From positions 448,457 through 512,456 of the forward strand of contig JADJGQ010000003.1 of the NCBI GenBank assembly GCA_016708025.1: DNA of 64,000 nucleotides, written 5' to 3'. Position 1 is the stretch's first letter, and each line of letters starts with the position of its first letter. Source of the DNA: a bacterium (GTDB lineage Bacteria; Zixibacteria; MSB-5A5; GN15; FEB-12). Positions 5,072 through 55,215 of the stretch are shown here, piece by piece. The translations under genes were made by a program, and so were the position numbers. Below the pieces are notes generated by a model. It had not been told where the DNA came from, did not search any database, and saw nothing but the letters and a program-made list of their open reading frames with translations.

Positions 5072-5090
5072 CCGGATTGAGTAGAGGAAA

Positions 5091-7148
5091 ATGACTATGC
5101 ACATACTGCAATCAACACTCAGGCTCGCATCACTGATGCTCCTGACGATATTCCTTCTGCCGGTCCTCTCTACTGCGCAGGAGGAAGCCGAATTCGGCGT
5201 TTACCCGATGTCCGGGCCGGAGGGAATTCTCCTGGTCATCCAGGGACAACCCCTCCATCCGACCGTCGCCTCTCAGAACTCCGGTTGGGTCGGTTATCAT
5301 ATCTACCGCAAGGCAGACAGTGACACTAGTTATATCCGGATCACGTCCCAGCCGGTGTCGCGCGTCGGATCACTTGAGGAACTCGAGGCTTTTGCCGGTG
5401 GACCGATCGATGGACTGGAACGACTTGTTGGTCTCACAACCAAGCAAGAACTCTGGCAGCGGCTGGCCGCGAATGATTCGTCTGCGATGATCCTCGGCAT
5501 ATTCAGTCGCTCATTCTACGAAGCGATGGGTTTGTTGCGATGGGACCGCCTGGTCGAAAAGGGGAAAGCCTACAGCTATCGCGCTACCCGCGTCGACAAA
5601 AACGGCAAAGAATCTGAAGCCTCCGAACCGGTCAGCGCAACCTACGGCACTCCCCCCTTCTCACTGCTCGGGCCACTCGACCCGCAGATCGCAAATACCA
5701 AGAAAGGCGTCGAGTTAACTTGGCAAAGAAATCCTGACGATTCCGGCGGAATGAGCTATTCCGTATATCGCACACCGGACCTCGAGGGTTCTTTCATCCG
5801 CCTCAATCGTTACTCATTGATCCTGACTCCCGATTCCGCCACCGGCGAACCGCGCGGCACCTTTGTCGACACGACCGCCAGTCAGGGTCATGGATATTAC
5901 TATGCCGTCGTCTCAACTGACTATGCCGGCAATGAGAGCACCCGCGATAAAGTCCTTTCGATCCATGTCGCCGATCTGCTTCCTCCACCCATTCCACAGA
6001 ATGTCTTTGCTGATCCGGATGAGCTCGGAATCACGATCCGGTGGGACAAAGTCGACGATCCGGCGACTGCTGGCTACTATATCTACCGTAGTCTCGACCC
6101 TGACAGCAATTACATCAAGATCACCGAATCACTGCTTCCCTACGACACCGGGTGGTACATGGATCGCACTGCCACGGTGACCGATCGCGTTTTCTATCGT
6201 GTTTCTGCCGTCGACCAGTCCGGGAATGAGTCCGCCCCGTCCGCGCGGGCGCTCTCCCTCTACGAAAACTACGTGGTACCGCTTCCTCCGCAGGAAGTTC
6301 GGGCAATGCAGTCCGACAGCGGTGTTGTGATCTCGTGGATACGCAATGAAGAACCGGACCTGCAGGGATATTACCTCTTCCGCGCCGACAATTACGGCGG
6401 TGAACTGACTCAGATCTCCCCGTTGATCCCTCCGGACACACTCAATTATCGCGATTCATCGGACTACCTTTCCCCGCGCGGCGAATACTGGTACCTGGTG
6501 CAGGCGATCAATTTCACCGGCATCACCAGTCAGTATTCCGTACCAGTGGCGGTCAGCCCCTCCAAGGAAGAGTCTCCGGAACAGGTGCTGGCATTCTGGG
6601 GATATTATGAACCGGGCGCCGGCAGACTCTTCTGGCGTGCCCCCGATGATAATATGGTCGCGGGGTACAATCTCTATCGAACGACTACCGGGGATACCAC
6701 ACAATGGATTCTCCTCAATGCAAAGCCGCTAGACCGCACAGTCGGCGAATACCGCGACACGCTGGTCTCCCCAAATCAATTCTATCGCTATCGCATCTGC
6801 TCCGTGGATCCGAAAGGTCTTGAAGGCGACATGTCGCACATCGTCTCCTTTGTCACCTTTGAATCCGTCGCTCCACCTCCCGGAGGACTTCGTGTCGTCA
6901 GCACCGATGGCACGCCAAAACTGATCTGGAATCAGTCTCAGTTGAAGGAAATTGTCGGCTATCGCATTTACCGTCGCCAGGATAATATCGCCATGGCCAT
7001 TCATCCTCAGATGCTACCTGCCACGGCTAATGAGTATCAGGACACAACCGCCCAGCGAGGCATGAAGTACTACTACTCCATAAGCTCGGTGGACAGTTGG
7101 GGTCGCGAAAGCGAACGTAGCCCGGAGATAGAATACCTGGTTCGCTGA
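5091..7148 (+). CDS. Secreted protein with about six fibronectin type III-like domains
   Basis: N-terminal signal peptide (LASLMLLTIFLLPVLSTAQE). Six units end in the FN3-like strand motif: YSYRATRVDKNGKES, YYYAVVSTDYAGNES, FYRVSAVDQSGNES, WYLVQAINFTG, FYRYRICSVDPKGLE, YYYSISSVDSWGRES. It lies 19 nt downstream of the previous stop. Confidence 0.75.
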   Translation: MTMHILQSTLRLASLMLLTIFLLPVLSTAQEEAEFGVYPMSGPEGILLVIQGQPLHPTVASQNSGWVGYHIYRKADSDTSYIRITSQPVSRVGSLEELEAFAGGPIDGLERLVGLTTKQELWQRLAANDSSAMILGIFSRSFYEAMGLLRWDRLVEKGKAYSYRATRVDKNGKESEASEPVSATYGTPPFSLLGPLDPQIANTKKGVELTWQRNPDDSGGMSYSVYRTPDLEGSFIRLNRYSLILTPDSATGEPRGTFVDTTASQGHGYYYAVVSTDYAGNESTRDKVLSIHVADLLPPPIPQNVFADPDELGITIRWDKVDDPATAGYYIYRSLDPDSNYIKITESLLPYDTGWYMDRTATVTDRVFYRVSAVDQSGNESAPSARALSLYENYVVPLPPQEVRAMQSDSGVVISWIRNEEPDLQGYYLFRADNYGGELTQISPLIPPDTLNYRDSSDYLSPRGEYWYLVQAINFTGITSQYSVPVAVSPSKEESPEQVLAFWGYYEPGAGRLFWRAPDDNMVAGYNLYRTTTGDTTQWILLNAKPLDRTVGEYRDTLVSPNQFYRYRICSVDPKGLEGDMSHIVSFVTFESVAPPPGGLRVVSTDGTPKLIWNQSQLKEIVGYRIYRRQDNIAMAIHPQMLPATANEYQDTTAQRGMKYYYSISSVDSWGRESERSPEIEYLVR

Positions 7149-7173
7149 ATAGGATTAACCGGCAAATAAGCAT

Positions 7174-8874
7174 ATGACAAGTTCCCGATCCACTGGTTGG
7201 CTGAGCGCTCCCCTATTCATGGTGATCCTCGTTACCGGAATGGCGATGGCTCAATCTGATTCCTTGACCGCCAAGTCCTCCGGCTCGAGCTCTGCGCTCC
7301 GCTTCTCGGGTGAAATTGGGGCGTTTGGCGAACTCTACAATATGTCCGGCCGCCCCGACAACCGACCGTCATCCACCGGGCGGGTATTCCTCCGCTCCAC
7401 TCTGACTGCCTGGGAATCCATCAGCACCAACCTGAATCTGGTTCTTTCAACCGAAGGGAATTCCGCGCGCCAGGAAATCAACCAGCTTGATTTCAATCCG
7501 CGGTGGCGTTGGGGTGAGATGCACCTCGGTGACTTCACGACCGAATACACCCCGCTTACGCTTAACGGCATTCGCGTCCGCGGCGGATCGCTGATGCTGC
7601 AGCCAGGGAAGTTCCGGCTCGGTCTGCTCTCCGGTCGAACCAACCGCTCCGTGTCGACTGATTCCGATCGGCGCAGCTACGAACGGACGATCTCTGGTGG
7701 AGTGATTGGGATCGGCCAAACCCAGGGGTCACACTTCAATCTCACTTTCCTCACGGCCCGAGACCGCCTTGGTTCGCTGGCAGATATTCCGACCGACACC
7801 ACGATCGATACGCTCGGCATCGGCGATGATTCCACACAGAACCCGGTCAGTGTGACTCCGCAGGAGAATCTGGTTGTCTCGGCGTTGACAAACCTCAAGC
7901 TGTTTGATCGACATGTCACCTGGAGAAGTGAATTCAGCGCGAGTGCCATCACTCGTGATCGCCGCGCCGACCCGGTTGAGTCCGAAGATATCCCCGCTTT
8001 CCTCGCCGATATCTTCACCCCACGCGTCAGTAGCGGCGCTGATTACGCCTACACCACTGATCTGAATCTCGATCTCAAGAAGGTCGCGTTCACGGCGGGC
8101 TACAAATACATCGGCCCCGGCTATGTCTCCCTTGGAGTTACTTCTCTCCTCCCGGACCGCCAGACGGTCTCTGCCGGTATGCAATACCGTCATTCACGCG
8201 GCATGTTTAAGCTGGATGGCTCACACCAGACAGACAACCTGATCGACCAGAAGCTTGCAACAACGACTCGAACCCGCTTCTCCTCGGTCCTCACCTATCG
8301 TCTCGCCCGAGGCTGGAATGCCAATGCCGCTGTCACCGTGGCAGGTATGCAAAATGATGCCGCTGTGACCTCTTCCAAGGTCGATTACACCAGTCTGATG
8401 CTTCGCACTGGCCAAATCATGACTTTCTCGCGACGCCTCGGTCTCAAGATGCTGTCGCTCGACTATACGTATCAGCATGCCGAGGATCCCACCCCGGGTC
8501 GACAAACCAGTCGACTGGCCTCGCACTCGGCTACCCTCGGTAGTGCGATTGGCCTCACCGAATCATTGGAACTGACTGCTCAGTCAGGACTTGTCTCTTC
8601 GGAACGCGGCGACTCTCCTTCCGAATTATCACAAACCTATGCTCTCGGCCTCCGCAAATCTGCCTTGCAGGCGCGGCTGATGCTTTCAGCCACCACCACG
8701 ATCGCCGTGCAATCGCCGCATACCTCTTTCCGCAATGCCTTGCGCGGAAACTACCGGCTGACTCAAACCCTGTCGATGACCGCCGAGGTGGAAACCACCC
8801 TGCTTCGAGGCGGTCCGTCCACCAATCAGTACGAGGAGATCGCCTCGCGCCTGATGGTGACCCGGCAATTCTGA
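7174..8874 (+). CDS. Putative outer-membrane beta-barrel protein, family unassigned
   Basis: Signal peptide (LFMVILVTGMAMAQS), an alternating hydrophobic/polar strand pattern throughout, and a terminal aromatic residue (...MVTRQF). It lies 25 nt after the FN3 gene. Confidence 0.6.
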   Translation: MTSSRSTGWLSAPLFMVILVTGMAMAQSDSLTAKSSGSSSALRFSGEIGAFGELYNMSGRPDNRPSSTGRVFLRSTLTAWESISTNLNLVLSTEGNSARQEINQLDFNPRWRWGEMHLGDFTTEYTPLTLNGIRVRGGSLMLQPGKFRLGLLSGRTNRSVSTDSDRRSYERTISGGVIGIGQTQGSHFNLTFLTARDRLGSLADIPTDTTIDTLGIGDDSTQNPVSVTPQENLVVSALTNLKLFDRHVTWRSEFSASAITRDRRADPVESEDIPAFLADIFTPRVSSGADYAYTTDLNLDLKKVAFTAGYKYIGPGYVSLGVTSLLPDRQTVSAGMQYRHSRGMFKLDGSHQTDNLIDQKLATTTRTRFSSVLTYRLARGWNANAAVTVAGMQNDAAVTSSKVDYTSLMLRTGQIMTFSRRLGLKMLSLDYTYQHAEDPTPGRQTSRLASHSATLGSAIGLTESLELTAQSGLVSSERGDSPSELSQTYALGLRKSALQARLMLSATTTIAVQSPHTSFRNALRGNYRLTQTLSMTAEVETTLLRGGPSTNQYEEIASRLMVTRQF

Positions 8875-8960
8875 ACCAACTCGCCACCCTTCCCGAACAT
8901 CACCTAACCGCTCCGTCTTTGCCGGTACCGTGATCGGCCTGCCGCGCTCCCTGAAAAGCG

Positions 8961-8990
8961 TTGACAACATGGAGCCCTAATGTATATTAT
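8961..8990 (+). promoter_or_regulatory. Sigma-70-like promoter for the first tail-fibre-domain gene
   Basis: TTGACA at 8961-8966, then TATATT at 8983-8988 (16-nt spacer) or TATTAT at 8985-8990 (18-nt spacer). A 6-bp hairpin (AGGGCC/GGCCCT) sits at 9003-9020 in the leader, and AAGGAG at 9065-9070 precedes the ATG at 9077. Confidence 0.5.
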
Positions 8991-9076
8991 TAAAGAAGTG
9001 TTAGGGCCGGGTCTGGCCCTCATACCGTCATCCAGTTACAGCATTACATCATTCAGCACCTAGTAAGGAGTGCCTC

Positions 9077-11614
9077 ATGCGCCAGTTCCTCACTCTCCTG
9101 ACCGTTCTTTGCCTGGCATTTACGGTCTCACCTATTCTGGCCGGTCCGATCGCCGACTCGCTCGCATTCCAGGGGCGTCTCACCGATGCATCGGATGTCC
9201 CGGTTCCCGATGGACCGCGTGACCTCACCATCTCCCTCTGGACTGACTCGGTCGGCGGCACTATGCTCCATAGTGAAGTCGTCGTTGTGACCGTCAGCAA
9301 AGGACTCTATTCGACCTGTATCGGCTGCGCCAGCAGCTCGTTTTTTGATATCTTCAAAAGCCAATCCGTTTACCTGCAGGTACAATTGGCCGGATCACCA
9401 CCGATGACCCCGCGCACCCAGATGCGGAGCGTACCGTTCTCGGTCTCATCGTCGAGCCTTCATAATCAGGGCACAATGCCCGGCGGTTCCGTTATTAGTG
9501 CCGCGGTCAGTTCTGTCGGAAACCTCGCCGGTGGCGGCGGCGGTGCAGCAGCCGCTTCGTATGCGCGACTCGCCGCAGATAGTGATGGCGATGGTCATGA
9601 CGACTTTGTCATCACCGATAGCGCCAGAACGGATGGCGCTCATTCGGTCATGGGTGGGGATCTGGACGGTGACGGAATCCCGGACGTTGCCATTGCCTCA
9701 GTGGTGCGTCCCACAACCGCCAGTCTCGCCATCAAAACCAAGGGGACCAGCGCCCAGCGCCTTAGCGCTGGCGGCGACTGCGACGATACCGACTCTGAGA
9801 TATACGCAGACTGCGACGACGACAATGACGGCATTGTCGACCGCTCCGCTGCCTTGCGCATTACCCCAACCACATCGAGTCTGGCTATCAATAGCAAAGG
9901 GACCAGCGCCAAGCGACTGCGCGCCGGCGGTGATTGCGACGACACAGACTCCGAACTCTATACCGACTGCGACGACGACGACGATGGTCTCATAGACCGG
10001 TCAGCTGCCTTACGTATTACTCCAACCACCTCGAGTCTGGCGATCAAAACCAAAGGTACCAGCGCCCAACGCCTCAGCGGCGGCACAGACTGCGACGACT
10101 TGAGCGCGACCAATTACCTCGACTCTGACGACGACGGTGATGGCATCCCCGAAGATGAAATCGAGTCATCAGTCATGCCCGGAACCTGCAGCGTGGCCAT
10201 TAAAACCAAAGGGACTGGCGCCGACGCAAATCGCGTCGTCACAACCACCACGCCGGACTCTGTAGTCACCGAACAAACCTTTGAGTTCGAAAACTCCCTC
10301 CTCATGCCTGCTCTGATGAAGGCCAAAGAAAAGGCCAATCGAACCAAGTGCTCCAACAATCTGCGCTATCAGTCACCGGTCACTGTCCATGAAGGCGAAC
10401 TGGCCGTTGATTCCACCGGCTCTGGATTGAACATGTTCTCCGACGACGATGGCGACGGTATCCCGGAGTCCTCAGTAAAGGTCGGCTCGGGTGCATCGCT
10501 TCTCGGAGGCGCACTTCCAGGTGGAGCGGTCTTATCGGCACGCTGCGACATTGACGATGACGGCGATGCCGAAGGCGAGATTGTGTCCTCCGTCGTGCCA
10601 GGTACGTCCGCTGTAGCCATCAAAACCAAGGGGACCGGCGCTGACAAAAACCGGACAGCAGCAAGCTCCTGCGACGACAGCTCGGCGGTCGACTATTTGG
10701 ATATCGATGATGACGCCGACGGCATCTCAGAGGCATATGCGGTGAGTTCCGTTGTCGCAGGGTCCGGCGGCGGCGGAGGTGGCGCCGCATCAGCTTCTTA
10801 CGCCGCGACTGGACGTTGGTACACTGACTCCGACGATGATGGTGTCCCGGAAGGTGACATTGAAGCAATAGTCACTCCCACGACCAACAGTGTCGCTATC
10901 AAGACCAAAGGGACCGGTGCCGATGCGAATCGCGTTGTGATCACGCAAACCACCGATACCACTCGTGCATCTACGGTCACATCTGTCGATCTCGATGGCG
11001 ACGGACTTGCGGACAGATCAGTAACTATGGACTGCGATGATACCGACGGCGGCATAACCGTAGAAGGCGCTTCCAGCGCGGTTAAAATCAAACACAAAGG
11101 CTGGGATGGCTTGATCTACGGGCGTATGGCCATCGAAACCGGCGGCAACATTGAAGTTGATTTCGGCGGTAACGGTGTCGGCTTCGTGTCTCAACGGTTT
11201 GGCATAGGCGTACTCTCGCCGACGAATCCGCTTGAACACTCTTCAGGCGCGCACTTGACAGCCGGTGGCGTCTGGACCAACGCGTCAGATGAAAATCTCA
11301 AAGAGAACTTCCAGCCGGTTGATGGCGCTGAACTGCTCGAGAAGATCGAACAGCTCCCAATTTCCGAGTGGAACTACAAAACTGAATCCGACGAGATCAA
11401 GCATATCGGCCCGACCGCCCAGGATTTCCAGGCGACGTTCGGAGTCGGTTCTGATGGCAAGTCGATCTCGACGATCGATCCTTCCGGCATCGCCCTGGCC
11501 GCGATTAAGGAACTCAAGAAAGAGAATACCGAACTGAAGAAGCAAATCGAAGAACTCTCTGGCCTGAAGAACGAAATTGAGCAACTCAAGAAGCTGCTCA
11601 TGGAAAAGAAGTAA
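9077..11614 (+). CDS. Signal-peptide protein with acidic Ca-binding-like repeats and a C-terminal tail-fibre/endosialidase intramolecular-chaperone (Peptidase S74-like) domain plus coiled coil
   Basis: The C-terminus reads GGVWTNASDENLKENF...LPISEWNYK...HIGPTAQDF...IDPSGIALAAIKELKKEN, then a heptad-like tail. The N-terminus reads LAFQGRLTDASDVPVPDG...ISLWTDSVGG. DxDxDG-type acidic motifs recur. A strong RBS is present. Confidence 0.8.
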   Translation: MRQFLTLLTVLCLAFTVSPILAGPIADSLAFQGRLTDASDVPVPDGPRDLTISLWTDSVGGTMLHSEVVVVTVSKGLYSTCIGCASSSFFDIFKSQSVYLQVQLAGSPPMTPRTQMRSVPFSVSSSSLHNQGTMPGGSVISAAVSSVGNLAGGGGGAAAASYARLAADSDGDGHDDFVITDSARTDGAHSVMGGDLDGDGIPDVAIASVVRPTTASLAIKTKGTSAQRLSAGGDCDDTDSEIYADCDDDNDGIVDRSAALRITPTTSSLAINSKGTSAKRLRAGGDCDDTDSELYTDCDDDDDGLIDRSAALRITPTTSSLAIKTKGTSAQRLSGGTDCDDLSATNYLDSDDDGDGIPEDEIESSVMPGTCSVAIKTKGTGADANRVVTTTTPDSVVTEQTFEFENSLLMPALMKAKEKANRTKCSNNLRYQSPVTVHEGELAVDSTGSGLNMFSDDDGDGIPESSVKVGSGASLLGGALPGGAVLSARCDIDDDGDAEGEIVSSVVPGTSAVAIKTKGTGADKNRTAASSCDDSSAVDYLDIDDDADGISEAYAVSSVVAGSGGGGGGAASASYAATGRWYTDSDDDGVPEGDIEAIVTPTTNSVAIKTKGTGADANRVVITQTTDTTRASTVTSVDLDGDGLADRSVTMDCDDTDGGITVEGASSAVKIKHKGWDGLIYGRMAIETGGNIEVDFGGNGVGFVSQRFGIGVLSPTNPLEHSSGAHLTAGGVWTNASDENLKENFQPVDGAELLEKIEQLPISEWNYKTESDEIKHIGPTAQDFQATFGVGSDGKSISTIDPSGIALAAIKELKKENTELKKQIEELSGLKNEIEQLKKLLMEKK
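9710..10177 (+). repeat. Three in-frame tandem copies of a 156-bp (52-aa) unit inside the CDS
   Basis: Units start at 9710, 9866 and 10022 (PTT[A/S]SLAI[K/N][T/S]KGTSA[Q/K]RL..GGDCDDTDSE[I/L]Y.DCDDD.DG..DRSAALRIT). The third copy is diverged. Degenerate AIKTKGTGAD units recur near 10196, 10617 and 10896. Confidence 0.85.
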
Positions 11615-11645
11615 ACACCATCTGTTGATGGTTTCTTGATTCCGG

Positions 11646-11675
11646 GGGCGAGTCTTCTATCGACTCGCCCTTTTT
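11646..11675 (+). terminator. Rho-independent terminator
   Basis: GGGCGAGTC (11646-11654), a 7-nt loop, GACTCGCCC (11662-11670), then TTTTT (11671-11675). Confidence 0.75.
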
Positions 11676-11779
11676 ACACGCACTACTGCCTGTGACTTTC
11701 ATTCCGCGCACAGGCCAAAATCTACTTCCGATGATAAGAACGCTGTAAACGATAATTGGGATCACCAAAGGAGTACCGT

Positions 11780-14218
11780 ATGCGTCGCACTCTCGTCTGG
11801 AGCCTCACCTTCATCGTGGCCGCCCTTGCTTTTGTCGGCGCTGCGACAGGAGCCCCCTCTACTGTTAGCTACCAGGGTCGTCTCACCAGCTCGTCGGGCA
11901 CTCCGGTCGCCGATGGCTCCTACTCTATCACCTTCAGCATCTGGACTGACTCGGTCGCCGGCTCAATGATCTGGAGCGAATCACAGACTGTCCAGGTAAC
12001 CGGCGGTGGGGGACTCTTCTCCACCCAGTTGGGCGGCCTTCAGCCGCTCGGAGGAGAGTTGATCATTCATGCTGACGACGAACTCTTTCTTCAGACCGCC
12101 GTTTCGGGTACGCCGCTCTTACCCAGGTTGGCCCTGGGATCGGTTCCGCATGCCTTTGTGTCTTCCAGCGTGAGTCAGACTGTACCGGGGAAAGGCTCTG
12201 TTCACATGGGCGTGGGAGAAGACACGACCAAGATCATCACAACCCATGAGAGCTTCTCTAATCTCCTCGACTCCTACGTTCACCTCACCGATGATCGCGC
12301 ACTCATGGGACTAAAGTCCTACAACCCATCACAATCATATCGGGGCTCCAGTAATAGTGAGATCTCTGGAAGTGTTATTCGGAACTTTCTTGATCTCGAT
12401 GATGACGCTGATGGCGTCCCGGATGTCGTGGAAGATATGTCGGTCCAGCCTGGAACCGCTACTCTGAGTGTCAGTTCGTCAAAGAGACGTTTTAATCTGA
12501 TGGACGCCTTCCCTCAGCGCTTTGTGGTGAGTGCCCACGACTCAGACACGGCCAGTTCGGTCAGTTCTGCGTTGGAATCAGACGCGGATGCTGACGGCAT
12601 CGCTAATGGAAGCGTCTGGGCAAAGGTCGACAACACCGACGTGATCAGTGTCGCCGGAGTTGATGTCGATGAAGACGGCGACACCGATGTTGGCAACTCT
12701 TCCTCGGCCAAGATTTCACGTTCGATTCTCAAGACCTTCTTTGAGCGCGGCGATAAACCGACGCAAAGCCAGATCGTTGACAGCGTCGACGAGAACGGCG
12801 CATATCATGGCACCACTCGGTACACCGGTTCAGACTTTGAAAGATTCCATGTCAGCCTGATGCCGGACTCGGCTGTCGTTTCAACTGAAGCAAGCAATCC
12901 CGATGGGTCATCTTCGAGCCGCATGCGAGTCCGTGTCAACGAACTCGAAGCAAGACTACAGTCAATAGGAATACTGGCCAGGTCAAGCTCCACGAGTTCG
13001 CTCACGCCGGATTCGGCTTCTGAGACAATTGAAGTACATGGTGCTGGCGCACAAATTGGAAGAGTCGTCTCTGTTTCGTCGAGCACCGATATCGACAGTG
13101 CAGTGACCGAGATCCTCGGGCAGGATGCGACTAGCGCTGGCAGTATTCGACTCACCGCGCAACCAGCCGGACCGACTGTGGTGAATCTTTCGAGTATGGA
13201 TGCCTCCTCCGGCACGCCCATCATAAAGGGTAGTGCCCTCATGACCTCATCCCCCAGCAGTGTTGCACACTCACTGGAGTGGGATGAAGATGGAGATGGT
13301 GTCTTTGATCGCCGGGTCACCGAAGATTGCGATGATGACGACGCCGGAATCTCTATTCAGGCCGGTGTTGCCATTCCCAAGTTCATCAACGTCACAGCCC
13401 AGGCTCAGGCTGCCGCGCAAAAGGCTGATATCGGAATGTTGATGGGAGTCGGCTCGGATACTACCATAAAAATCGGTGCCGATGATGATGAGGCTGGAGT
13501 CACCATACAGTCCGGAGTCGCCATTCCGAGGTTCATCGAAATGAATGCCAAATCGCAGAGTTCAGCCCATCAAGCCAGCGTTGGACTTGTTATGGGCGCC
13601 GGCCCCGATACTGCGGTCGCAGTTTACAGCGACGAATCAGAAACTAAGCTCAGATTCAAGGCACCCCAATCCGGCCATTATACCTTTGATTTTGCATTCA
13701 CGCCCGCCAGTGGTTCGGTCTCTATGACTGATTCACTTGGCGCGATCTCCATGCAAATGGACGGCGATGGTCGCTTGGGAGTTGGCGGACCGGCTCATGC
13801 CAACAATCCCATTGATCATCCCTCCAGTGGGGCACACTTGACTTCCGGCGGTGTCTGGACCAACGCGTCCGACGAAAATCTCAAAGAGAATTTCAGGATG
13901 GTAAATGGCGAAGAACTCCTGGAGAAGCTCGAAGAACTTCCGATCAGCCAGTGGAACTACAAGAGTGAATCTGACAATGTGACCCACATCGGCCCGACCG
14001 CGCAAGACTTCCAGAAAGTCTTTGGCGTTGGCGAGAACGACAAGACCATCTCGACTATTGATCCCTCCGGTATCGCTCTTGCCGCGATCAAAGAGCTGAA
14101 TAAACAGAACCTTCAACTCCATGAAGAGAGCAAGAAGATCAGGAAAGAAAATGAACGACTGCAGAAAGAGCTGAATGAGTTGAGAGCCAGAGTCGACAAA
14201 CTGATCTCCGGCAAATAG
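11780..14218 (+). CDS. Paralog of 9077-11614: signal-peptide protein with the same N-terminal module and the same S74-like C-terminal chaperone domain
   Basis: The ATG at 11780 is preceded by AAGGAG (11768-11773), so the track start at 11756 is probably too early. N-terminus: VSYQGRLTSSSGTPVADGSYSITFSIWTDSVAGS. C-terminus: GGVWTNASDENLKENF...LPISQWNYK...HIGPTAQDF...IDPSGIALAAIKELNKQN, plus a coiled coil. Confidence 0.8.
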   Translation: MRRTLVWSLTFIVAALAFVGAATGAPSTVSYQGRLTSSSGTPVADGSYSITFSIWTDSVAGSMIWSESQTVQVTGGGGLFSTQLGGLQPLGGELIIHADDELFLQTAVSGTPLLPRLALGSVPHAFVSSSVSQTVPGKGSVHMGVGEDTTKIITTHESFSNLLDSYVHLTDDRALMGLKSYNPSQSYRGSSNSEISGSVIRNFLDLDDDADGVPDVVEDMSVQPGTATLSVSSSKRRFNLMDAFPQRFVVSAHDSDTASSVSSALESDADADGIANGSVWAKVDNTDVISVAGVDVDEDGDTDVGNSSSAKISRSILKTFFERGDKPTQSQIVDSVDENGAYHGTTRYTGSDFERFHVSLMPDSAVVSTEASNPDGSSSSRMRVRVNELEARLQSIGILARSSSTSSLTPDSASETIEVHGAGAQIGRVVSVSSSTDIDSAVTEILGQDATSAGSIRLTAQPAGPTVVNLSSMDASSGTPIIKGSALMTSSPSSVAHSLEWDEDGDGVFDRRVTEDCDDDDAGISIQAGVAIPKFINVTAQAQAAAQKADIGMLMGVGSDTTIKIGADDDEAGVTIQSGVAIPRFIEMNAKSQSSAHQASVGLVMGAGPDTAVAVYSDESETKLRFKAPQSGHYTFDFAFTPASGSVSMTDSLGAISMQMDGDGRLGVGGPAHANNPIDHPSSGAHLTSGGVWTNASDENLKENFRMVNGEELLEKLEELPISQWNYKSESDNVTHIGPTAQDFQKVFGVGENDKTISTIDPSGIALAAIKELNKQNLQLHEESKKIRKENERLQKELNELRARVDKLISGK
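13343..13642 (+). repeat. Two in-frame tandem 150-bp (50-aa) units
   Basis: AGISIQAGVAIPKFINVTAQAQAAAQKADIGMLMGVGSDTTIKIGADDDE is followed directly by AGVTIQSGVAIPRFIEMNAKSQSSAHQASVGLVMGAGPDTAVAVYSDESE. Confidence 0.7.
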
Positions 14219-14240
14219 ACTATCATCACCCGAATGACCA

Positions 14241-14269
14241 CAGGCCAGGCATCATGCCTGGCCTGTTTT
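14241..14269 (+). terminator. Rho-independent terminator between convergent genes
   Basis: CAGGCCAGGCAT / ATGCCTGGCCTG palindrome at 14241-14265, followed by TTTT at 14266-14269. Confidence 0.75.
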
Positions 14270-14309
14270 GTGACAACCCAAAAGAAGGAGATGTCCCAGC
14301 TACCAGGAC

Positions 14310-14747
14310 TCACTTGGTTGTGGTCGTTCGAACATACTCTTCCAGCGACTGCCGGATCATGCTTCGAAGGCTGTCGTCATCCCATGGCTTCGTGAGAAAT
14401 TTGTGGCAATGCAGAATGCTGTCGGCGATCGGTTGAGGAACCGACTGGGCTTTGGTCGCTCCCGTCAGCATGATCCGGATACAGCGCGGATTCCGAGACT
14501 CCATGACAGCCAGCAACTCTGCGCCTGTCATTTCCGGCATGGTGTAATCGCTGATCACCACCGCAAACTCGTGCGTCGCCATTAACTGCATCGCCGACAT
14601 ACAGTCATTAGCCGTGAACAGGGTATATGGTTCGCGGCGCAATGCTCGCTGTAGCGCATTTAGAATAGACGGTTCATCATCCACCAGCAGGATGGCGTGC
14701 TTTCCCGCTTCTCCCTGCCCTTCATTCCCACTCATCGAAACCCCCAA
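14310..14747 (-). CDS. Single-domain response regulator (receiver)
   Basis: ILLVDDEPSIL...VVISDYTMPEMTGAELL...IMLTG...KFLTKPWDDD, i.e. REC with an RpfG-type LxKPW ending. Confidence 0.85.
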   Translation of the reverse strand: MGVSMSGNEGQGEAGKHAILLVDDEPSILNALQRALRREPYTLFTANDCMSAMQLMATHEFAVVISDYTMPEMTGAELLAVMESRNPRCIRIMLTGATKAQSVPQPIADSILHCHKFLTKPWDDDSLRSMIRQSLEEYVRTTTTK

Positions 14748-14760
14748 TTATATCAATTTT

Positions 14761-17700
14761 TCACTCTTGCTGACTCGACCCGTTTCCGCTGCTCACAATT
14801 GCGACGGTGCCCTCAACGATTCGACTCGTTGGCTGGACCGGCTGATCAATTATTCTGTCAATCGCCGCAAGAAGCTCTTCCGGCTGGAACGGCTTTTGCA
14901 GAAGCTCACAATCATCTCCCACCACGCCATTCCTTCCTAACACGTCATCTGTGTAACCTGACATGTACAGTGATCGACATCCGGGATACCGCGATCGCAC
15001 CAGATCCCCCAACTGACGGCCATTCATCCCCGGCATAATAATGTCAGTGATCAGAATGTCAGGAGTGATCTCCCGCCGTCGCAGCATCTCGATCGCTTCC
15101 TCGCCCGAAGATGCCTCGATCACCTGATGCCCGGATTGCTCAAGCACTCGCCGTACCAACTGCCTGATCGCATGTTCATCCTCGACGAGACAAACCAGTT
15201 TGCTGCCTCTCGCGATTAAAGACTGGCCAGTTTTGTCCTTCGGTGACACTTCGATATGCGATACTGGTTCCGCTGGTAACCAGACTTCAAACGTTGTTCC
15301 TTCTCCGACCGCACTCTGTACTGTAACTACGCCATTTGCCTGATGGACTATGCCATAAACGGTAGAAAGTCCCAATCCTGTCCCCTTGCCGACCTCCTTG
15401 GTCGTGAAGAACGGATCGAAGACGCGGTCCATGGTTGCCTGATCCATACCGCACCCGGTGTCGCTACAGATCAATTGCACATGCGCAGTCAGATCCGTGA
15501 AATCGTTGGCTGATAATAGTGGAGCCATCCCCAGAATCGCCTTGGTCCTCAGGGTGATCTTCCCTCCCTGCGGCATCGCATCTCGCGCGTTCACCACCAG
15601 ATTCAGGATCACCTGCTCAAGTTGCGCGGGGTCGATCACGACATGCGGAATGTGCGGGTCAAATTCAGTTGTGAGGATGATATTTTCGTCCAGGATACGG
15701 CTTAACATCTTTCGTAAATTGTCGATGATCGCATTCACATTAATCGACTGCGGTCGACTTATCTGCTTCCTGCTGTATGCCAGCAGTTGCCGGGTTAACG
15801 AAGCGGCCCGATTGCCGGTCTCCAGTATCTGCGCTATATCTTCCCGGTGAGGGTTATCTTCAGGAAAGTGTTTGAGTAACATATGGCTGTGGCCGATGAT
15901 CACGGTCAACAGGTTATTGAAATCGTGAGCGATCCCACCGGCCAGAATTCCGACTGCCTCCAACTTTTGCGATTGCAGCAACTGCTGTTCGAGATTCCTC
16001 TGCAGCGTCATGTCATGTTTGACCGCCACGAAGTGCGCGATCTTTCCCTGACTATCCAAAACAGGCGAAATGGTCGCGCGCTCAACGAACTCATGACCAT
16101 CCTTGGCGACATTGATCAATTCACCGCGCCAGATCTGACCGGAGGTGATCGTCGACCAGAGTCGCGAATAGAATTCGCTGCTCAGTTTGCCGCTCTTCAG
16201 AACAGCCGGAGTTTTGCCGATCGCCTCTTCTGTGCTATAACCGGTCACTCGCGAGAAAGCCGGATTGCAGTACTCGATCGTCCCGAGTGGATCGGTCACT
16301 ACGATCGCTTCATCTGCTGCCTCGATCGCCGCATTCAACAGCGACTGCCGCAGCACCATTCGATAGTGTTCATCAACGTCGTAGACGATCCCCTCAAGAA
16401 ACGCCTGCAGGCCATCTGACGAGCTTGAAGGGCTTGCTTGCTCCATCACCCATCGAAAGGTCCCGTCTTTGTGCTGGACACGGTACGAGACATTAAGCGG
16501 CATCTGCGACTCGATCGCCTCTTCCCGAGCGCGCTCTACTGCCCCCTGATCGCCCGGATGGATCAAGGGCATTTCGCTGCTATTTACACAAAGGATAAGC
16601 TCTTCCGGCGAATAGCCGAAAATTCGCGTCGAACCTCCGCTCGCGAATTCCAGCAGACGCTCGGGACGCATCTGGCGTCGGAAGGCCATCCCCGGCAGAT
16701 TGTTCATCAGCGATGCCAGCATTCGCTCGCTCTCGCGCAGCGCCTGTTCCGCCTGATTCCGCTGCGATATATCGCGGCACACGCAAAAGATCAGCTTCTG
16801 TCCATTGCAGGTCGCTCCGTTGCTCGTGATCTCGACATCCACAAGACTGCCGTCTTTCTGGCGCATGCGGGTTTCAAATTTCTCTCCGGCCGCGTCCGAC
16901 TTCCTCAGCATTTCGAGAAGTTCTTCTGGCGTCCATGTGGTGTCCCAGTCCCATACATGCAGTGAAGCGGTTTCCTCGACCGTGTACCCGAGCATCTCAG
17001 CGAATCGGTTATTGCTTTCGTAGACCGCACCCGTTTCCGTCAACACGACAATGCCATCTCTCGACTGCTCGATCAGGATCCGACGGCGGATCGCTTCCTC
17101 CGCCAGCATTCGGTCGGTATCTTTTCGATCTGAGATGTCGCGCACGAAAACCAGGATCGCCGGCTCTCCATCCATGCCGATAACCGTGGCCGTGATCTCC
17201 GAATCGCACATCGTCCCATCAGCCTTGACTAGACGTAGCTCCATCGGCGCAAAATGCGTTTCGCCATCCGAACGCCGATTGATCCGTTCGATCACCTCCA
17301 GATGCTGTTCTGGGTCGACAAAGTTCAGAACACTCTGACCAAGCAGTGACTCGTCTCTTCCCACACGGAGAATGTCACGCATCGTGCTGTTGAGATAGAC
17401 TATGATTCCGCTCCGATGAACGATGATCCCATCTGGAGTTGTTTCGATCATTGCCCGAAAACGTTCTTCACTCTCTCTCAGCCGCTGCATTGCGTCGCGT
17501 TGCTCCGTGACGTCAAAACAGACGCCCACAAATCCGCTGATCCGGCCGTCTGCTTCACGAAGCGGACGTCCGCCATCCCTGATCCACCGATACTTCCCGT
17601 CGTATCTTCTTGCCCGATACTCCAGGTTCATTGACTGTCCACCTTCTATCGCCTTGGATAGCCGGGCCGTGTACAATGGAAGATCCTCTGTATGGATCAC

Positions 17701-18138
17701 CGACTCCCAGTTTTCTCCCGTCTCCTCGACCAGAGATCGACCGGTGAATTCAAGCCAGCGTTGATTGCAGTAGATTCGCTTGCCCGTGGCGTCGGTTCGC
17801 CAGGCCATTGCCGGGATCCCCTCGAGCAACGAATGGTAGTTGTCTCGCTCAGACTCGACCTGGCGAAGCAGTTGTTGGTAACCCTGGTCGAAATAGCGGT
17901 CAAAAAGTCTGTTGAAGTACCACGCCATGGTCGCTACTACCGCAACCAGGAGCGATGCCCCGACCAGTGAGGTAATAAAGTCTGTTAGATGCTCCAACTG
18001 ATACTCGCGTACTAGTTGCCGTCCAAAATGCTCCCAGATTAAAACGCGCACGACGACAAACGCAGGAACTGAAATGACTATCCAGAGCCAAACCTTCCCT
18101 TGAAACTCCCGTCTCCAGTTTTGCACCGTTTGCTTCAT
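14761..18138 (-). CDS. Membrane-anchored multi-PAS hybrid sensor histidine kinase (HisKA + HATPase_c + C-terminal REC)
   Basis: Two N-terminal TM helices and several PAS-like segments. H-box HDFNNLLTVIIGHSHML; ATPase motifs NLVVNARDAM, DTGCGMD, GKGTGLGLS; C-terminal receiver DILITDIIMPGMNG. Confidence 0.9.
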   Translation of the reverse strand: MKQTVQNWRREFQGKVWLWIVISVPAFVVVRVLIWEHFGRQLVREYQLEHLTDFITSLVGASLLVAVVATMAWYFNRLFDRYFDQGYQQLLRQVESERDNYHSLLEGIPAMAWRTDATGKRIYCNQRWLEFTGRSLVEETGENWESVIHTEDLPLYTARLSKAIEGGQSMNLEYRARRYDGKYRWIRDGGRPLREADGRISGFVGVCFDVTEQRDAMQRLRESEERFRAMIETTPDGIIVHRSGIIVYLNSTMRDILRVGRDESLLGQSVLNFVDPEQHLEVIERINRRSDGETHFAPMELRLVKADGTMCDSEITATVIGMDGEPAILVFVRDISDRKDTDRMLAEEAIRRRILIEQSRDGIVVLTETGAVYESNNRFAEMLGYTVEETASLHVWDWDTTWTPEELLEMLRKSDAAGEKFETRMRQKDGSLVDVEITSNGATCNGQKLIFCVCRDISQRNQAEQALRESERMLASLMNNLPGMAFRRQMRPERLLEFASGGSTRIFGYSPEELILCVNSSEMPLIHPGDQGAVERAREEAIESQMPLNVSYRVQHKDGTFRWVMEQASPSSSSDGLQAFLEGIVYDVDEHYRMVLRQSLLNAAIEAADEAIVVTDPLGTIEYCNPAFSRVTGYSTEEAIGKTPAVLKSGKLSSEFYSRLWSTITSGQIWRGELINVAKDGHEFVERATISPVLDSQGKIAHFVAVKHDMTLQRNLEQQLLQSQKLEAVGILAGGIAHDFNNLLTVIIGHSHMLLKHFPEDNPHREDIAQILETGNRAASLTRQLLAYSRKQISRPQSINVNAIIDNLRKMLSRILDENIILTTEFDPHIPHVVIDPAQLEQVILNLVVNARDAMPQGGKITLRTKAILGMAPLLSANDFTDLTAHVQLICSDTGCGMDQATMDRVFDPFFTTKEVGKGTGLGLSTVYGIVHQANGVVTVQSAVGEGTTFEVWLPAEPVSHIEVSPKDKTGQSLIARGSKLVCLVEDEHAIRQLVRRVLEQSGHQVIEASSGEEAIEMLRRREITPDILITDIIMPGMNGRQLGDLVRSRYPGCRSLYMSGYTDDVLGRNGVVGDDCELLQKPFQPEELLAAIDRIIDQPVQPTSRIVEGTVAIVSSGNGSSQQE

Positions 18139-19511
18139 GCAGGATCGACGTGCCCTTCCTGGCGACGCGGCTTACGCATCACCCAGATCTCTCCCGCCGC
18201 CGGATCCAGACGAACGATCGCCCTGATCCGGGCGATATTCTGGGCAGTCAGGCAAGTGCCGCTGGCCGCCAGCAATGATCCGGTCATCGTATAAAGATCG
18301 CGGGCCAATATGTAGTTTGGCGCAAGATCGGAAGGACCGATTCGCAAAATATTGTCGTTCGCGCGACGGTCATTCATTCGATTGATGTAATCCAGAGTGA
18401 TCTGAACCAGCCGTGACGGGAAATCCTGATCTGCCATCTCGGCGATCGTCTGACACGCAAATTGGAACGCAAATTCCGGACTTCGCGACGGACGCATGAT
18501 CAAATGGTCGTAGGCATCAACGATTCCCACGATATAGCTCTCGGTGAGCGTGGAAAGCCCTTTCTGCCCTGTTGGGAAGCCACTGCCATTATACCGTTCG
18601 TGATGTTGCTGAATGATCGTCGCGATCCGATCGTAGTAGCTGATCCCCTTCAAGTAATCCGTGCCGCTTTGCGGGTGCGTTTTGTACAGATCCAGCTCTT
18701 CCCGACTATAGTCGGCCGCATGCTTTTCTACCAGGAAGATCGGGAAGCCGAGCTTGCCGCCATCATGCAACAACGCTGCTATCTCGAGATCGCGAATCTC
18801 CTGACGGCCCAGCTTGCAGAGCTTGCCTATCTCGACCGCGTGTTCCGCGACGCGCCGACTATGGCTTCCCAATTCCGGACGGGCCGACTGGATCAACGTA
18901 AAGAAAACTTTGGTGCTGGAATACAGCGCGTCCTCGAGTTGTTCATTCAGGGCGCGGGCAGTATACAGCGCATCAGCAAGCTGGGTTGTTCTCGCTTGCA
19001 CCTGCTCCTCGAGTTCATTGTTGGCTGCTTCGAGTCTGGCGTTCTGTTGCTGCGTCAGCACGAGGAGACGACGGTTTTCATCATGCAGACGGCCATACTC
19101 CACTGCCTGACGGACCGCCAACCGGAGTTCCTCATCCTTCCACGGTTTGAGGAGAAACCGGTAGATCTCTCCGTCGTTGACTGCCTTTTGAACCGCCGCC
19201 AGATCGGCCTGGCCGGTGAGCATAAGACGGACAGCGCGTGGCCGCTTTTCCTTGACTCGCGCGAGGAACTCCGCTCCGGTCATCTGCGGCATCCGATGAT
19301 CCGAGACTATAACATCTATACAATGCGCACTGAGGGTTTCGAGCGCCTCTTTGGGCGAACCGACAAAGTGGCAATGCAACCCGGCCTCATTGTGAAATAC
19401 GCGTTGAAGCGCACGCAACACCGGTGCTTCATCATCTAAAAACAGCACTTCCGCGGTGGACTGTGTCGCCTCAGCCTGCTCCCGCTGCGGTTCTTCTGTC
19501 AATGTGGTCAT
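18135..19511 (-). CDS. RpfG-like response regulator: REC + HD-GYP domain (putative c-di-GMP phosphodiesterase)
   Basis: REC (VLFLDDEAPVL...IVSDHRMPQMTGAEF...RFLLKPWKDEEL), a coiled linker, then HSRRVA...LLHDGGK...HHERYNGSGFP (HD-GYP with GFP in place of GYP). Its ATGA stop/start overlaps the kinase gene. Confidence 0.85.
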   Translation of the reverse strand: MTTLTEEPQREQAEATQSTAEVLFLDDEAPVLRALQRVFHNEAGLHCHFVGSPKEALETLSAHCIDVIVSDHRMPQMTGAEFLARVKEKRPRAVRLMLTGQADLAAVQKAVNDGEIYRFLLKPWKDEELRLAVRQAVEYGRLHDENRRLLVLTQQQNARLEAANNELEEQVQARTTQLADALYTARALNEQLEDALYSSTKVFFTLIQSARPELGSHSRRVAEHAVEIGKLCKLGRQEIRDLEIAALLHDGGKLGFPIFLVEKHAADYSREELDLYKTHPQSGTDYLKGISYYDRIATIIQQHHERYNGSGFPTGQKGLSTLTESYIVGIVDAYDHLIMRPSRSPEFAFQFACQTIAEMADQDFPSRLVQITLDYINRMNDRRANDNILRIGPSDLAPNYILARDLYTMTGSLLAASGTCLTAQNIARIRAIVRLDPAAGEIWVMRKPRRQEGHVDPA

Positions 19512-20335: not shown

Positions 20336-20339
20336 TAAT

Positions 20340-20885: not shown

Positions 20886-20895
20886 CCGTCGTTCC

Positions 20896-42812: not shown

Positions 42813-43049
42813 AATCGGTCTATTAGTCACCCGGACAGATCAATCCACTGTTTTTGGGGGCGGCTCCGGCCGCCCAACAGATTTCGCTGCTTCGGATGCA
42901 ACATTTTGTTTCCCGGCTCGTCATTGCTAGTGAGATACCTGAAGACTCATTACGTTTGGCCGGCGCCCCTCTTTTTCAAGGTGGGGCAGGACCTCCCGGC
43001 CCGACTTGCACCGAAACAGATTCATAGGCAGTCGATCATGTACGCTTGA

Positions 43050-46882: not shown

Positions 46883-46898
46883 CGTCTGGATATCGACT

Positions 46899-55202: not shown

Positions 55203-55215
55203 GCGGACAAAAACA

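What the first reader, a model, noticed from the sequence alone, without database searches (positions are those of the whole stretch)
9077..14218. Two chromosomal, signal-peptide-bearing paralogs with a phage tail-fibre S74 intramolecular-chaperone domain and no phage context
Seen: both proteins end with about 115 aa that match the endosialidase/tail-spike chaperone signature (GGVWTNASDENLKENF ... NYK ... HIGPTAQDF ... IDPSGIALAAIKEL). In both, the Ser...Lys pair is spaced as in SDENLK (Ser codons at 11285 and 13868), followed by a coiled coil. The C-terminal roughly 330 bp are clearly similar at the DNA level (11240-11530 versus 13826-14110). Both share an N-terminal (V/L)x(Y/F)QGRLT...(I/F)S(L/I)WTDSV module and classic Sec signal peptides. 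No capsid, terminase, baseplate or integrase gene is nearby. Established knowledge: S74 domains drive trimerisation of phage fibres and then cleave themselves off. Inference: these are host-encoded, self-processing trimeric surface fibres, possibly working with the upstream envelope operon.
Basis: partly seen in the sequence, partly recalled or inferred. Interest (0 to 1): 0.6.

Follow-up and report, generated by a model that had tools for sequence, protein, structure and literature searches.

The report
Chromosomal self-cleaving surface fibre gene pair
Two neighbouring genes in an uncultured FCB-group bacterium encode secreted fibre proteins that carry the self-cleaving folding domain of phage tail spikes. 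They belong to the fibre family already described in the predator Bdellovibrio (the MAT family), so they are a real but fairly ordinary new member of a known kind.

Summary
ORF A (9077-11614, 845 aa) and ORF B (11780-14218, 812 aa) both match Pfam Peptidase_S74 (E about 1e-13, 52 bits against a cut-off of 22). Both have SDENLK with Ser codons at 11285 and 13868. They share about 75% identical DNA over 281 nt, have similar N-terminal modules and signal-peptide-like starts. No phage gene was found among the roughly 45 larger ORFs scanned across the 64 kb window.

The architecture is not new. Signal peptide, conserved beta-rich N-domain, variable shaft and C-terminal S74 chaperone define the S74 subgroup of the Bdellovibrio MAT (mosaic adhesive trimer) fibres (Caulton 2024). 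In that work Bd3182 self-cleaves at its catalytic Ser. The N-domain here matches NCBIfam Bdello_MAT_N below its cut-off (E 8.4e-9), as do 90 of 95 members of its family. That N-domain family is very large: 88,993 clusters at 50% identity.

Relatives are MAGs labelled Ignavibacteriales or Zixibacteria. They carry tandem arrays of 2-3 such genes with mosaic middles, under purifying selection, in non-phage chromosomal settings. The proposed link to the upstream envelope operon is not supported: A has its own promoter-like site, and the linkage is limited to close relatives.

Verdict: a new member of a known kind, of modest interest.

The parts
8961..8990 (+). Sigma-70-type promoter-like site (TTGACA, 16/18 nt, TATATT/TATTAT; 11 of 12 matches) upstream of gene A. 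An AAGGAG ribosome-binding site lies at 9066-9071.
   Evidence: This is a consensus match only, not evidence of function.
9077..11614 (+). Gene A, an 845-aa MAT-like fibre protein with a C-terminal S74 chaperone
9077..9142 (+). A: signal-peptide-like N-terminus (aa 1-22, MRQFLTLLTVLCLAFTVSPILA)
   Evidence: Read from the sequence. No predictor was run.
9152..9499 (+). A: conserved beta-rich N-domain (aa 26-141), homologous to the MAT N-terminal domain
   Evidence: E 4e-41 to the N-domain profile; Bdello_MAT_N, E 0.0034, weak
9578..11005 (+). A: acidic repeat shaft with ten DxDxDG motifs and six 'AIKTKGT'-type motifs. It includes three tandem 156-nt (52-aa) units at 9710-10177.
   Evidence: Only sub-threshold FG-GAP matches.
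11057..11284 (+). A: stalk and tip segment just upstream of the cleavage site (aa 661-736), ending ...GGVWTNA. It would form the C-terminal end of the mature fibre.
   Evidence: dN/dS for aa 701-736 is 0.004-0.01 against L001 and L006 orthologues, but this segment is replaced in L002.
11285..11611 (+). A: S74 intramolecular chaperone/protease domain (aa 737-845). Catalytic Ser737 codon at 11285-11287 and Lys742 codon at 11300-11302. Long C-terminal helix at aa 800-844 (11474-11608).
11780..14218 (+). Gene B, an 812-aa MAT-like fibre protein with a C-terminal S74 chaperone. The ATG start is as in NCBI protein P0001. The in-frame TTG at 11756 is the mechanical ORF start.
11780..11851 (+). B: signal-peptide-like N-terminus (aa 1-24, MRRTLVWSLTFIVAALAFVGAATG)
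   Evidence: Read from the sequence. No predictor was run.
11852..12226 (+). B: conserved beta-rich N-domain (aa 25-149). The model shows six beta-strands, with block-mean pLDDT of 75-96 over the first 90 residues (about 87 on average).
   Evidence: (Bdello_MAT_N, E 8.4e-9, 35.4 bits, cut-off 60)
12227..13867 (+). B: variable middle (shaft and tip). It has no Pfam family, four DxDxDG motifs, and is mosaic relative to orthologues.
13868..14215 (+). B: S74 intramolecular chaperone/protease domain (aa 697-812). Ser697 codon at 13868-13870 and Lys702 codon at 13883-13885.
11246..11526 (+). Direct DNA repeat shared by A and B (second copy at 13829-14109), 75% identical. It encodes the S74 core.

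Best explanation
A and B are chromosomal, cell-encoded fibre proteins of the MAT-like kind (mosaic adhesive trimer).

Proposed mechanism, step by step:
1. Each protein is exported by Sec through an N-terminal signal peptide. This is inferred from the sequence.
2. Three chains are brought into register by the C-terminal S74 intramolecular chaperone, whose long terminal helix forms the trimer core. This is inferred from the family.
3. The chaperone templates the folding of the stalk in front of it.
4. The Ser/Lys dyad (A: S737/K742; B: S697/K702) then cuts the chain just before the Ser, at ...TNA|SDENLK. This releases a chaperone fragment of about 109-116 aa and exposes the mature tip. This is inferred, and it mirrors Bd3182, which cleaves at A781|S782.
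5. The conserved beta-sandwich N-domain stays nearest the cell and holds the fibre on the envelope. This is inferred, and the receptor is unknown even in Bdellovibrio.
6. The variable middle and tip bind an outside target. In A the middle is made of acidic, probably calcium-binding, 52-aa repeats.

The two genes are paralogues in a tandem array that grows, shrinks and exchanges segments between relatives, as expected for diversifying adhesins. They are not part of a phage, tailocin or injection system.
For: S74 domain:
- Pfam matches have E about 1e-13, 30 bits above the cut-off.
- SDxxxK is present, and S, D and K are at least 90% conserved in 122 aligned relatives.
- The AF2 model of A 640-845 has pLDDT of 89-98 over the S74 part.
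- Its best PDB matches are only intramolecular-chaperone structures: MyRF ICA 7dc3 (E 7.7e-6), phage GA-1 3gud and K1F 3gw6.

N-domain:
- NCBIfam Bdello_MAT_N hits B at E 8.4e-9, and 90 of 95 aligned family members at E <= 0.01, best 3.3e-16.
- The domain follows the signal peptide directly, as in MATs.

Architecture:
- Of the best N-domain representatives that are at least 550 aa long, 67 of 99 match my local S74 profile. In most of the rows printed the match is near the C-terminus, though a few are short internal matches.

Experimental precedent:
- Bd3182 self-cleaves at S782, S782A blocks this, and MATs were localised on the predator surface (PMC10769870).

Not phage:
- No phage structural, packaging or integration family was found among the ORFs scanned across the window.
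- The N-domain has no tblastn match in 50,697 phage genomes.
- Only one weak S74-only hit was found in IMG/VR.
- Relatives sit among lysine-biosynthesis, carAB and DUF3570 genes.

Functional genes:
- dN/dS is 0.004-0.27 between orthologues in nearly all regions.

Diversifying family:
- Relatives carry arrays of 2-3 genes.
- Block-wise identity to orthologues swings between 10% and 98%.
Against: - The N-domain scores are below the curated cut-off of the Bdellovibrio model (35.4 and 17.2 bits against 60). A and B are therefore distant relatives, not members of that subfamily model.
- Trimer formation, cleavage, surface location and calcium binding were not tested and cannot be tested with these tools.
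- No signal-peptide predictor was run.
- The route across the outer membrane is unknown.
- The shaft of A is built from acidic repeats with no counterpart named in the MAT paper. The residues of the C-terminal model that precede the stalk had low confidence, with pLDDT about 50.
- dS is saturated (about 1 or more), so the dN/dS values are rough.
- The organism is uncultured and there is no expression evidence.
Confidence: 0.72

Rival explanations
1. The genes are leftover or domesticated tail-fibre genes of a prophage, tailocin or extracellular contractile injection system. They would act as receptor-binding fibres of a particle rather than of the cell.
For: The S74 domain is shared with phage fibres. 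PHROG tail-fibre and virion-protein families hit the C-terminal part (E 1e-7 to 7e-13). 26 phage genomes hold a related S74 at 35-49% identity. NCBI names the protein 'tail fiber domain-containing protein'.
Against: Both proteins start with signal-peptide-like sequences, which virion fibres assembled in the cytoplasm do not need. The N-domain has no match in 50,697 phage genomes and no confident fold match in BFVD. No sheath, tube, baseplate, capsid, terminase or integrase family was found among the ORFs scanned in 64 kb, nor in L001-L004. The position next to hyp257, DUF3570 and carAB is conserved in relatives.
Confidence: 0.06
2. The fibre genes are the last genes of the upstream envelope operon (1614-aa CarboxypepD_reg protein, 685-aa Fn3-repeat protein, 566-aa protein with no family). 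They would depend on it for export or anchoring.
For: All five genes lie on the same strand with short gaps. The three upstream genes lie directly upstream of the fibre array in L006 and L008. The 566-aa protein has a signal-peptide-like start and no known family, so a role as an outer-membrane partner cannot be excluded.
Against: A 202-nt gap before A holds a strong promoter-like site (11 of 12 matches) and a separate ribosome-binding site. L006 and L008 are close relatives (upstream proteins 65-86% identical), so this is shallow synteny. L001 has LysW-type lysine-biosynthesis genes upstream. L003 and L004 have unrelated neighbours. Clustering of neighbour ORFs over 15 loci found no family, other than the fibres themselves, shared beyond the window, L006 and L008.
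Confidence: 0.12
3. The S74-like end is kept only as a permanent trimerisation module, or the products are released into the medium (a secreted lectin, matrix or S-layer component) rather than being cleaved, cell-anchored fibres.
For: Cleavage and anchoring were not tested. The target of the N-domain on the cell is unknown even in Bdellovibrio. Some N-domain family members carry collagen-like repeats and are short.
Against: The catalytic Ser, Asp and Lys are conserved in at least 90% of 122 relatives, which would not be needed for a purely structural module. dN/dS of the S74 part is 0.06-0.12. Every tested S74 protein with an intact dyad that is cited cleaves itself.
Confidence: 0.1

Closest known systems
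Bdellovibrio bacteriovorus MAT (mosaic adhesive trimer) fibres, S74 subgroup, e.g. Bd3182 (Caulton et al. 2024, PMC10769870; NCBIfam NF053851 Bdello_MAT_N)
   Same: Same order of parts: signal peptide, conserved beta-rich N-domain of about 130 aa, variable shaft and tip, then a C-terminal S74 with SDxxxK. The cleavage context is the same (Ala|Ser). Both have several paralogues per genome with mosaic middles. Both are chromosomal and lie outside any phage.
   Different: The host is an FCB-group lineage (MAGs labelled Ignavibacteriales or Zixibacteria), not Bdellovibrionota, and has no known predatory habit. The N-domain scores are below the model's cut-off. The proteins are shorter (812-845 aa against about 1000). 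The shaft of A consists of acidic DxDxDG repeats that the paper does not describe. The genes are in a tandem array.
Phage S74 intramolecular chaperone domains: K1F endosialidase (3GW6), GA-1 neck appendage (3GUD), T5 L-shaped tail fibre pb1 (4UW8); Pfam PF13884
   Same: Same C-terminal domain family, the same Ser/Lys dyad and terminal helix, and fold matches to 3gud and 3gw6. A related S74 occurs in 26 phage genomes.
   Different: The phage proteins have no signal peptide and no MAT-type N-domain, and they are encoded within virion modules. Here there is no virion gene, and the N-domain is absent from phage genomes at BLAST sensitivity.
Eukaryotic myelin regulatory factor (MyRF) ICA domain (7DC3)
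   Same: It is the best structural match of the modelled C-terminus (E 7.7e-6, probability 1.00, 22-23% identity) and the only PDB sequence-profile hit (E 0.046). It is another non-viral use of the same self-cleaving trimerisation module.
   Different: MyRF is a membrane-bound transcription factor. Its domain is internal, and cleavage releases a DNA-binding trimer. Nothing else is shared.
Trimeric autotransporter adhesins (YadA type)
   Same: They work alike in outline: Sec-exported, obligate trimeric, modular surface fibres with variable binding parts.
   Different: Those adhesins are anchored by a C-terminal beta-barrel translocator. A and B have no such domain in the Pfam or NCBIfam scans, and their C-terminus is predicted to be cut off.

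Membership tests
Peptidase S74 / intramolecular chaperone (PF13884) | Profile match above Pfam's gathering score | tested here: met
   A 51.8 bits and B 51.9 bits against a cut-off of 22; E about 1e-13
Peptidase S74 / intramolecular chaperone (PF13884) | Catalytic Ser-Lys dyad in an SDxxxK motif at the start of the domain | tested here: met
   SDENLK at A 737-742 and B 697-702, aligned to profile position 1. S, D and K are at least 90% conserved in 122 relatives.
Peptidase S74 / intramolecular chaperone (PF13884) | Fold of solved chaperone domains, with a long C-terminal helix | tested here: met
   In the model the block-mean pLDDT of the S74 part is 89-98 and there is a 45-residue terminal helix. 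The top six Foldseek PDB chains are all chaperone-domain entries (7dc3, 3gud, 3gw6). Only the three 7dc3 chains pass E 1e-3. TM-scores are modest (0.4-0.58) because a monomer model is being compared with intertwined trimers.
Peptidase S74 / intramolecular chaperone (PF13884) | Trimerisation and autocatalytic release of the domain | not testable with these tools
   Needs a multimer prediction and expression of wild type against Ser-to-Ala mutants.
MAT (mosaic adhesive trimer) fibre family | Signal peptide directly followed by the conserved beta-rich N-domain of about 130 aa | tested here: inconclusive
   Homology is significant for B (NF053851, E 8.4e-9) and weak for A (E 0.0034), but both are below the curated 60-bit cut-off of the Bdellovibrio subfamily model. 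90 of 95 family members hit the model at E <= 0.01. The model is a six-stranded beta domain with no PDB homologue, as reported for MATs. Direct structural comparison with Bdellovibrio models was not possible because the AlphaFold library was unavailable.
MAT (mosaic adhesive trimer) fibre family | Variable C-terminal tip, in the S74 subgroup closed by an S74 domain | tested here: met
MAT (mosaic adhesive trimer) fibre family | Several paralogues per genome with exchanged (mosaic) segments | tested here: met
   Two in the window. Three in tandem in L002 and in L006. A further copy on another contig of the same MAG (L010). Block identities range from 10% to 98%.
MAT (mosaic adhesive trimer) fibre family | Trimeric along the whole length; located on the cell surface | not testable with these tools
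   No multimer prediction is available and the organism is uncultured.
Phage, tailocin or contractile-injection-system tail fibre | Encoded within a module of particle genes (sheath/tube/baseplate or capsid/terminase) | tested here: not met
   No such family among the ORFs scanned across the 64-kb window or in the flanks of L001-L004
Type IX secretion cargo | C-terminal sorting domain (Por_Secre_tail type) | tested here: not met
   No such match in Pfam or NCBIfam. The C-terminus is the S74 domain.
Trimeric autotransporter adhesin | C-terminal YadA-type membrane anchor | tested here: not met
   No match in Pfam or NCBIfam

The most novel reading that the evidence does not exclude
MAT-type fibres may not be a predator's tool. 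They could instead be a general, very widespread system of self-processing surface fibres in FCB-group and other bacteria, held on the cell by one conserved N-domain (about 89,000 clusters and no Pfam family). Its envelope receptor and its route across the outer membrane are still unknown. In this lineage the shaft would be a new calcium-stiffened repeat design. Alternatively, their presence may point to an unrecognised cell-attacking or epibiotic habit in bacteria of the Zixibacteria or Ignavibacteria type.
Probability: 0.3. Interest if true: 0.55.

Novelty: new member of a known kind. Interest (0 to 1): 0.3.

Why it matters
It shows that the phage-derived, self-cleaving fibre design described in Bdellovibrio also occurs in uncultured FCB-group bacteria that are not known as predators. 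There it appears as tandem, recombining gene arrays. The survey made here suggests that the N-terminal anchoring domain is one of the larger uncharacterised secreted-protein domains in metagenomes. That makes it a reasonable target for a family definition and for finding its envelope partner. For this particular locus, the main practical result is a better annotation than 'tail fiber domain-containing protein', and the removal of any suspicion that it is a prophage.

Tried and rejected
- Exact-sequence look-ups of A and of P0001 found no contig on record, so the source contig beyond the window was not seen.
- phmmer of full-length A against PDB sequences found nothing. A profile of the S74 part found only MyRF, at E 0.046. 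Sequence alone is too weak to link it to the phage structures.
- The N-domain model found no confident match in the PDB (best E 0.024, TM 0.36). It found none in BFVD either (best E 2.9e-3, TM 0.41, a Microbacterium phage minor tail protein). It looks like a generic beta sandwich.
- The N-domain alignment was too variable for a scan of viral contigs. The single-protein scan gave one weak S74-only hit.
- Pfam at E <= 1 on the middle regions gave only sub-threshold FG-GAP hits for A and nothing for B.
- PADLOC gave no match, so a defence system was rejected.
- A programmed-inversion (shufflon-like) switch was considered, because a published survey lists tail-fibre-domain proteins among gene families enriched near predicted inversions. 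There are no inverted repeats in 8800-14400 and no invertase nearby, so it was rejected.
- A lipoprotein reading of the Cys at A residue 12 was considered and rejected, because the residues before it do not fit a lipobox.
- The last two protein searches returned mostly short fragments, so they gave only a rough picture of taxonomy.
Full report
**What is there**

The stretch 9077-14218 holds two same-strand ORFs. A is 9077-11614 (845 aa). B is listed from a TTG at 11756, but it is identical to NCBI protein P0001 (812 aa, 'MAG: tail fiber domain-containing protein [bacterium]') when read from the ATG at 11780.

Both match Pfam PF13884 Peptidase_S74, 30 bits above the gathering score (E 9.7e-14 and 9.6e-14). 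Profile position 1 aligns to the Ser of a single SDENLK motif.

BLASTP of A against B gives two separate similar regions:
- a 247-column C-terminal alignment (43% overall, far higher from the AHLT motif onward);
- roughly the first 260-290 residues, which include the N-terminal module (31% identity, E 6e-20).

The middles align only through short acidic motifs.

At the DNA level, 11246-11526 and 13829-14109 are 75% identical, against 26% for shuffled sequence.

Both proteins begin with a basic residue or two, a hydrophobic stretch and a small-residue cleavage context. This was read by eye, as no predictor was available.

**No phage setting**

I scanned roughly 45 of the larger ORFs, spanning the window, with Pfam. 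Nine around the finding were also scanned with PHROGs. The window holds the following:
- an upstream set of three large secreted proteins (CarboxypepD_reg repeats; Fn3-like repeats; one with no family);
- a block of two-component signalling genes;
- DUF3570, carA and carB;
- a DEAD-box helicase and a Ser/Thr kinase;
- redox and iron-regulation genes, and transporters;
- a methylase/HNH pair.

I found no capsid, terminase, portal, sheath, tube, baseplate or integrase family and no tRNA gene. The only PHROG tail hits outside A and B are to the Fn3 repeats of the 685-aa protein, which also occur in the lambda J family. PADLOC finds nothing.

**Relatives**

The closest relatives of B lie in metagenome-assembled genomes labelled 'uncultured Ignavibacteriales', 'Ignavibacteria' or 'Candidatus Zixiibacteriota'. 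The window therefore comes from an uncultured FCB-group lineage, not from Bdellovibrionota.

In these genomes the genes form tandem arrays. L001 and L004 have two, and L008 has at least two. L002 and L006 have three. A further copy lies on another contig of the L002 genome.

The array sits next to hyp257, DUF4266, DUF3570 and carAB in L002 and L006. In the window, the 8-kb signalling block 14310-22563 is inserted at that point.

Flanks in L001, L003 and L004 are ordinary metabolic and envelope genes, not phage genes.

**The N-terminal module is the key to classification**

NCBIfam has a model, NF053851 Bdello_MAT_N ('mosaic adhesive trimer family chimeric fiber protein'). It hits B residues 24-93 at E 8.4e-9 (35.4 bits) and A weakly at E 0.0034 (17.2 bits). 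Both are below the curated 60-bit cut-off.

I aligned 95 N-domains: A, B and proteins found with them. Of these, 90 hit the same model at E <= 0.01, the best at 3.3e-16. The module is therefore a distant relative of the MAT N-domain.

An AlphaFold model of B 25-160 gives a confident six-stranded beta domain, with block-mean pLDDT of 75-96 over the first 90 residues. It has no significant match in the PDB or in BFVD. This agrees with the published remark that the MAT N-domain has no structural homologue in the PDB.

**What is known about that family**

Caulton et al. 2024 (PMC10769870) defined 21 MAT proteins in B. bacteriovorus HD100. [quoted passage not shown]

- A C-terminal fragment of Bd3182 cleaves itself at S782, and S782A blocks this.
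- The mature tip ends at A781.
- MATs were seen on the predator surface.
- The N-domain is proposed to bind a cell-surface element that is still unknown.
- Their Supplementary Table S3 already lists MAT proteins in other phyla: FCB-group bacteria (Dokdonia with an S74-like tip, Saprospiraceae, Salinivirga, Kordia), Omnitrophica, a planctomycete and Micavibrio.

**How common it is**

A profile of 13 N-domains was searched against 1.84 billion representatives. It found 88,993 clusters at E <= 1e-3 and 41,351 at E <= 1e-10. In most of the best 150, the domain starts at residues 20-50.

Of the best representatives that are at least 550 aa long, 67 of 99 also match my local S74 profile, in most printed cases near the C-terminus.

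Named members are mostly Bacteroidota and Zixibacteria, and some carry collagen repeats instead. Close S74 relatives are named from Chloroflexi, Planctomycetota and Zixibacteria.

By contrast, the N-domain has no tblastn match in 50,697 phage genomes. The S74 part matches 26 of them at 35-49% identity. Only one weak S74 hit was found in IMG/VR.

The S74 module is therefore shared with phages, while the N-domain looks cellular.

**The S74 end**

The model of A 640-845 is confident over the S74 part, with block-mean pLDDT of 89-98. It shows short strands, two short helices and one 45-residue terminal helix.

Its top six PDB chains are all intramolecular-chaperone entries:
- MyRF ICA 7dc3 (E 7.7e-6, probability 1.00);
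- phage GA-1 3gud (probability 0.98);
- K1F 3gw6.

TM-scores are modest, as expected when a monomer model is compared with intertwined trimers.

In an alignment of 122 relatives, the Ser, Asp and Lys of the motif are at least 90% conserved. The HIGPxAQDF and IDxxG motifs are also conserved: six of their positions are invariant and the rest at least 90%.

**The middles**

A has ten DxDxDG motifs and six 'AIKTKGT'-type motifs in repeats of about 52 aa. Three of these repeats are tandem 156-nt units at 9710-10177.

Pfam gives only sub-threshold FG-GAP matches there, and nothing for B. I read the repeats as calcium-binding loops that stiffen a shaft. This is an inference from the motif alone.

Orthologue comparison in 50-aa blocks is strongly mosaic:
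- A against L002_a is 96-98% identical in four of the five blocks over residues 250-500 (90% in the other), but only 16% in 650-700.
- A against L009 is 86-94% identical in three blocks and about 20% in many of the others.

dN/dS is 0.004-0.27 between orthologues in nearly all regions, including the S74 part at 0.06-0.12. dS is saturated, so these values are rough. These are working genes that exchange segments.

There are no inverted repeats, so no inversion switch.

**The upstream operon**

The 202-nt gap before A holds a TTGACA-16/18-TATATT/TATTAT match (11 of 12) and an AAGGAG ribosome-binding site.

The three upstream genes accompany the array only in L006 and L008, which are close relatives. 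L001 has lysine-biosynthesis genes there instead.

Clustering of neighbour ORFs over 15 loci found no recurrent partner family.

The suggested functional link is therefore unsupported, though not excluded.

**Verdict**

The locus is best described as a tandem pair of MAT-like, S74-processed surface fibre genes in an FCB-group bacterium.

- Shown: the domains, motifs, fold match, paralogy, mosaicism, selective constraint and non-phage context.
- Inferred: Sec export, trimerisation, self-cleavage at Ala|Ser, anchoring through the N-domain, calcium binding and an adhesive role.

It is a new member of a known kind. The one wider point of interest is the very large, still unmodelled N-domain family and its presence in lineages not known as predators.

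Noticed in passing
window 49824-53083: An AcrB-type RND transporter gene is split into two overlapping ORFs. 49824-52205 covers profile positions 12-734 and 52139-53083 covers 755-1019. This points to a frameshift, pseudogene or assembly error.
   Followed up: no
window 53725-56154: A low-GC island (GC 0.468 in 54001-56000, against about 0.55 elsewhere) holds a C-5 cytosine DNA methylase and an HNH endonuclease. It is probably an acquired restriction-modification pair.
   Followed up: no
window 14310-22563: A block of six minus-strand signalling genes: a receiver, a 1125-aa PAS histidine kinase, a receiver-HD protein, an HDOD protein, a receiver and a hybrid kinase. It lies between the fibre genes and hyp257/DUF3570/carAB, and is absent from that position in L002 and L006, so it is an insertion or a loss.
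   Followed up: partly
window 227-8874: Three large secreted proteins in a row: 1614 aa with CarboxypepD_reg domains, 685 aa with Fn3-like repeats, and 566 aa with no Pfam, NCBIfam, PHROG or PADLOC family. They are conserved as a set in L006 and L008. The function is unknown, and the 566-aa protein could be an outer-membrane protein.
   Followed up: partly
window 57960-58607 (minus strand): A 215-aa ORF with thrombospondin type 3 repeats (PF02412, E 4.5e-10). This is another acidic calcium-binding repeat protein in the same genome.
   Followed up: no
window about 43000-50000: The cumulative GC skew reaches its minimum near 46-48 kb, and gene orientation changes from mostly minus to mostly plus around 43 kb. 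This could mark a replication origin or terminus, or a rearrangement.
   Followed up: no
L004 4321-4809 and 7522-7983: In a more distant relative, each of the two fibre genes is followed by a small ORF (162 and 153 aa, one with a weak dockerin hit). These could be accessory or partner genes, and they are not present in the window.
   Followed up: no
L003 12703-14745: A single MAT-like gene there lies next to a TMEM260-like protein (a family of protein O-mannosyltransferases) and sugar epimerases. This hints that some fibres may be glycosylated.
   Followed up: no
proteins P0016, P0017, P0089, P0120 (representative library): Some large proteins (up to 2260 aa) carry three to six copies of the N-domain and have no S74 end. 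The domain is therefore also used as an internal repeat.
   Followed up: no
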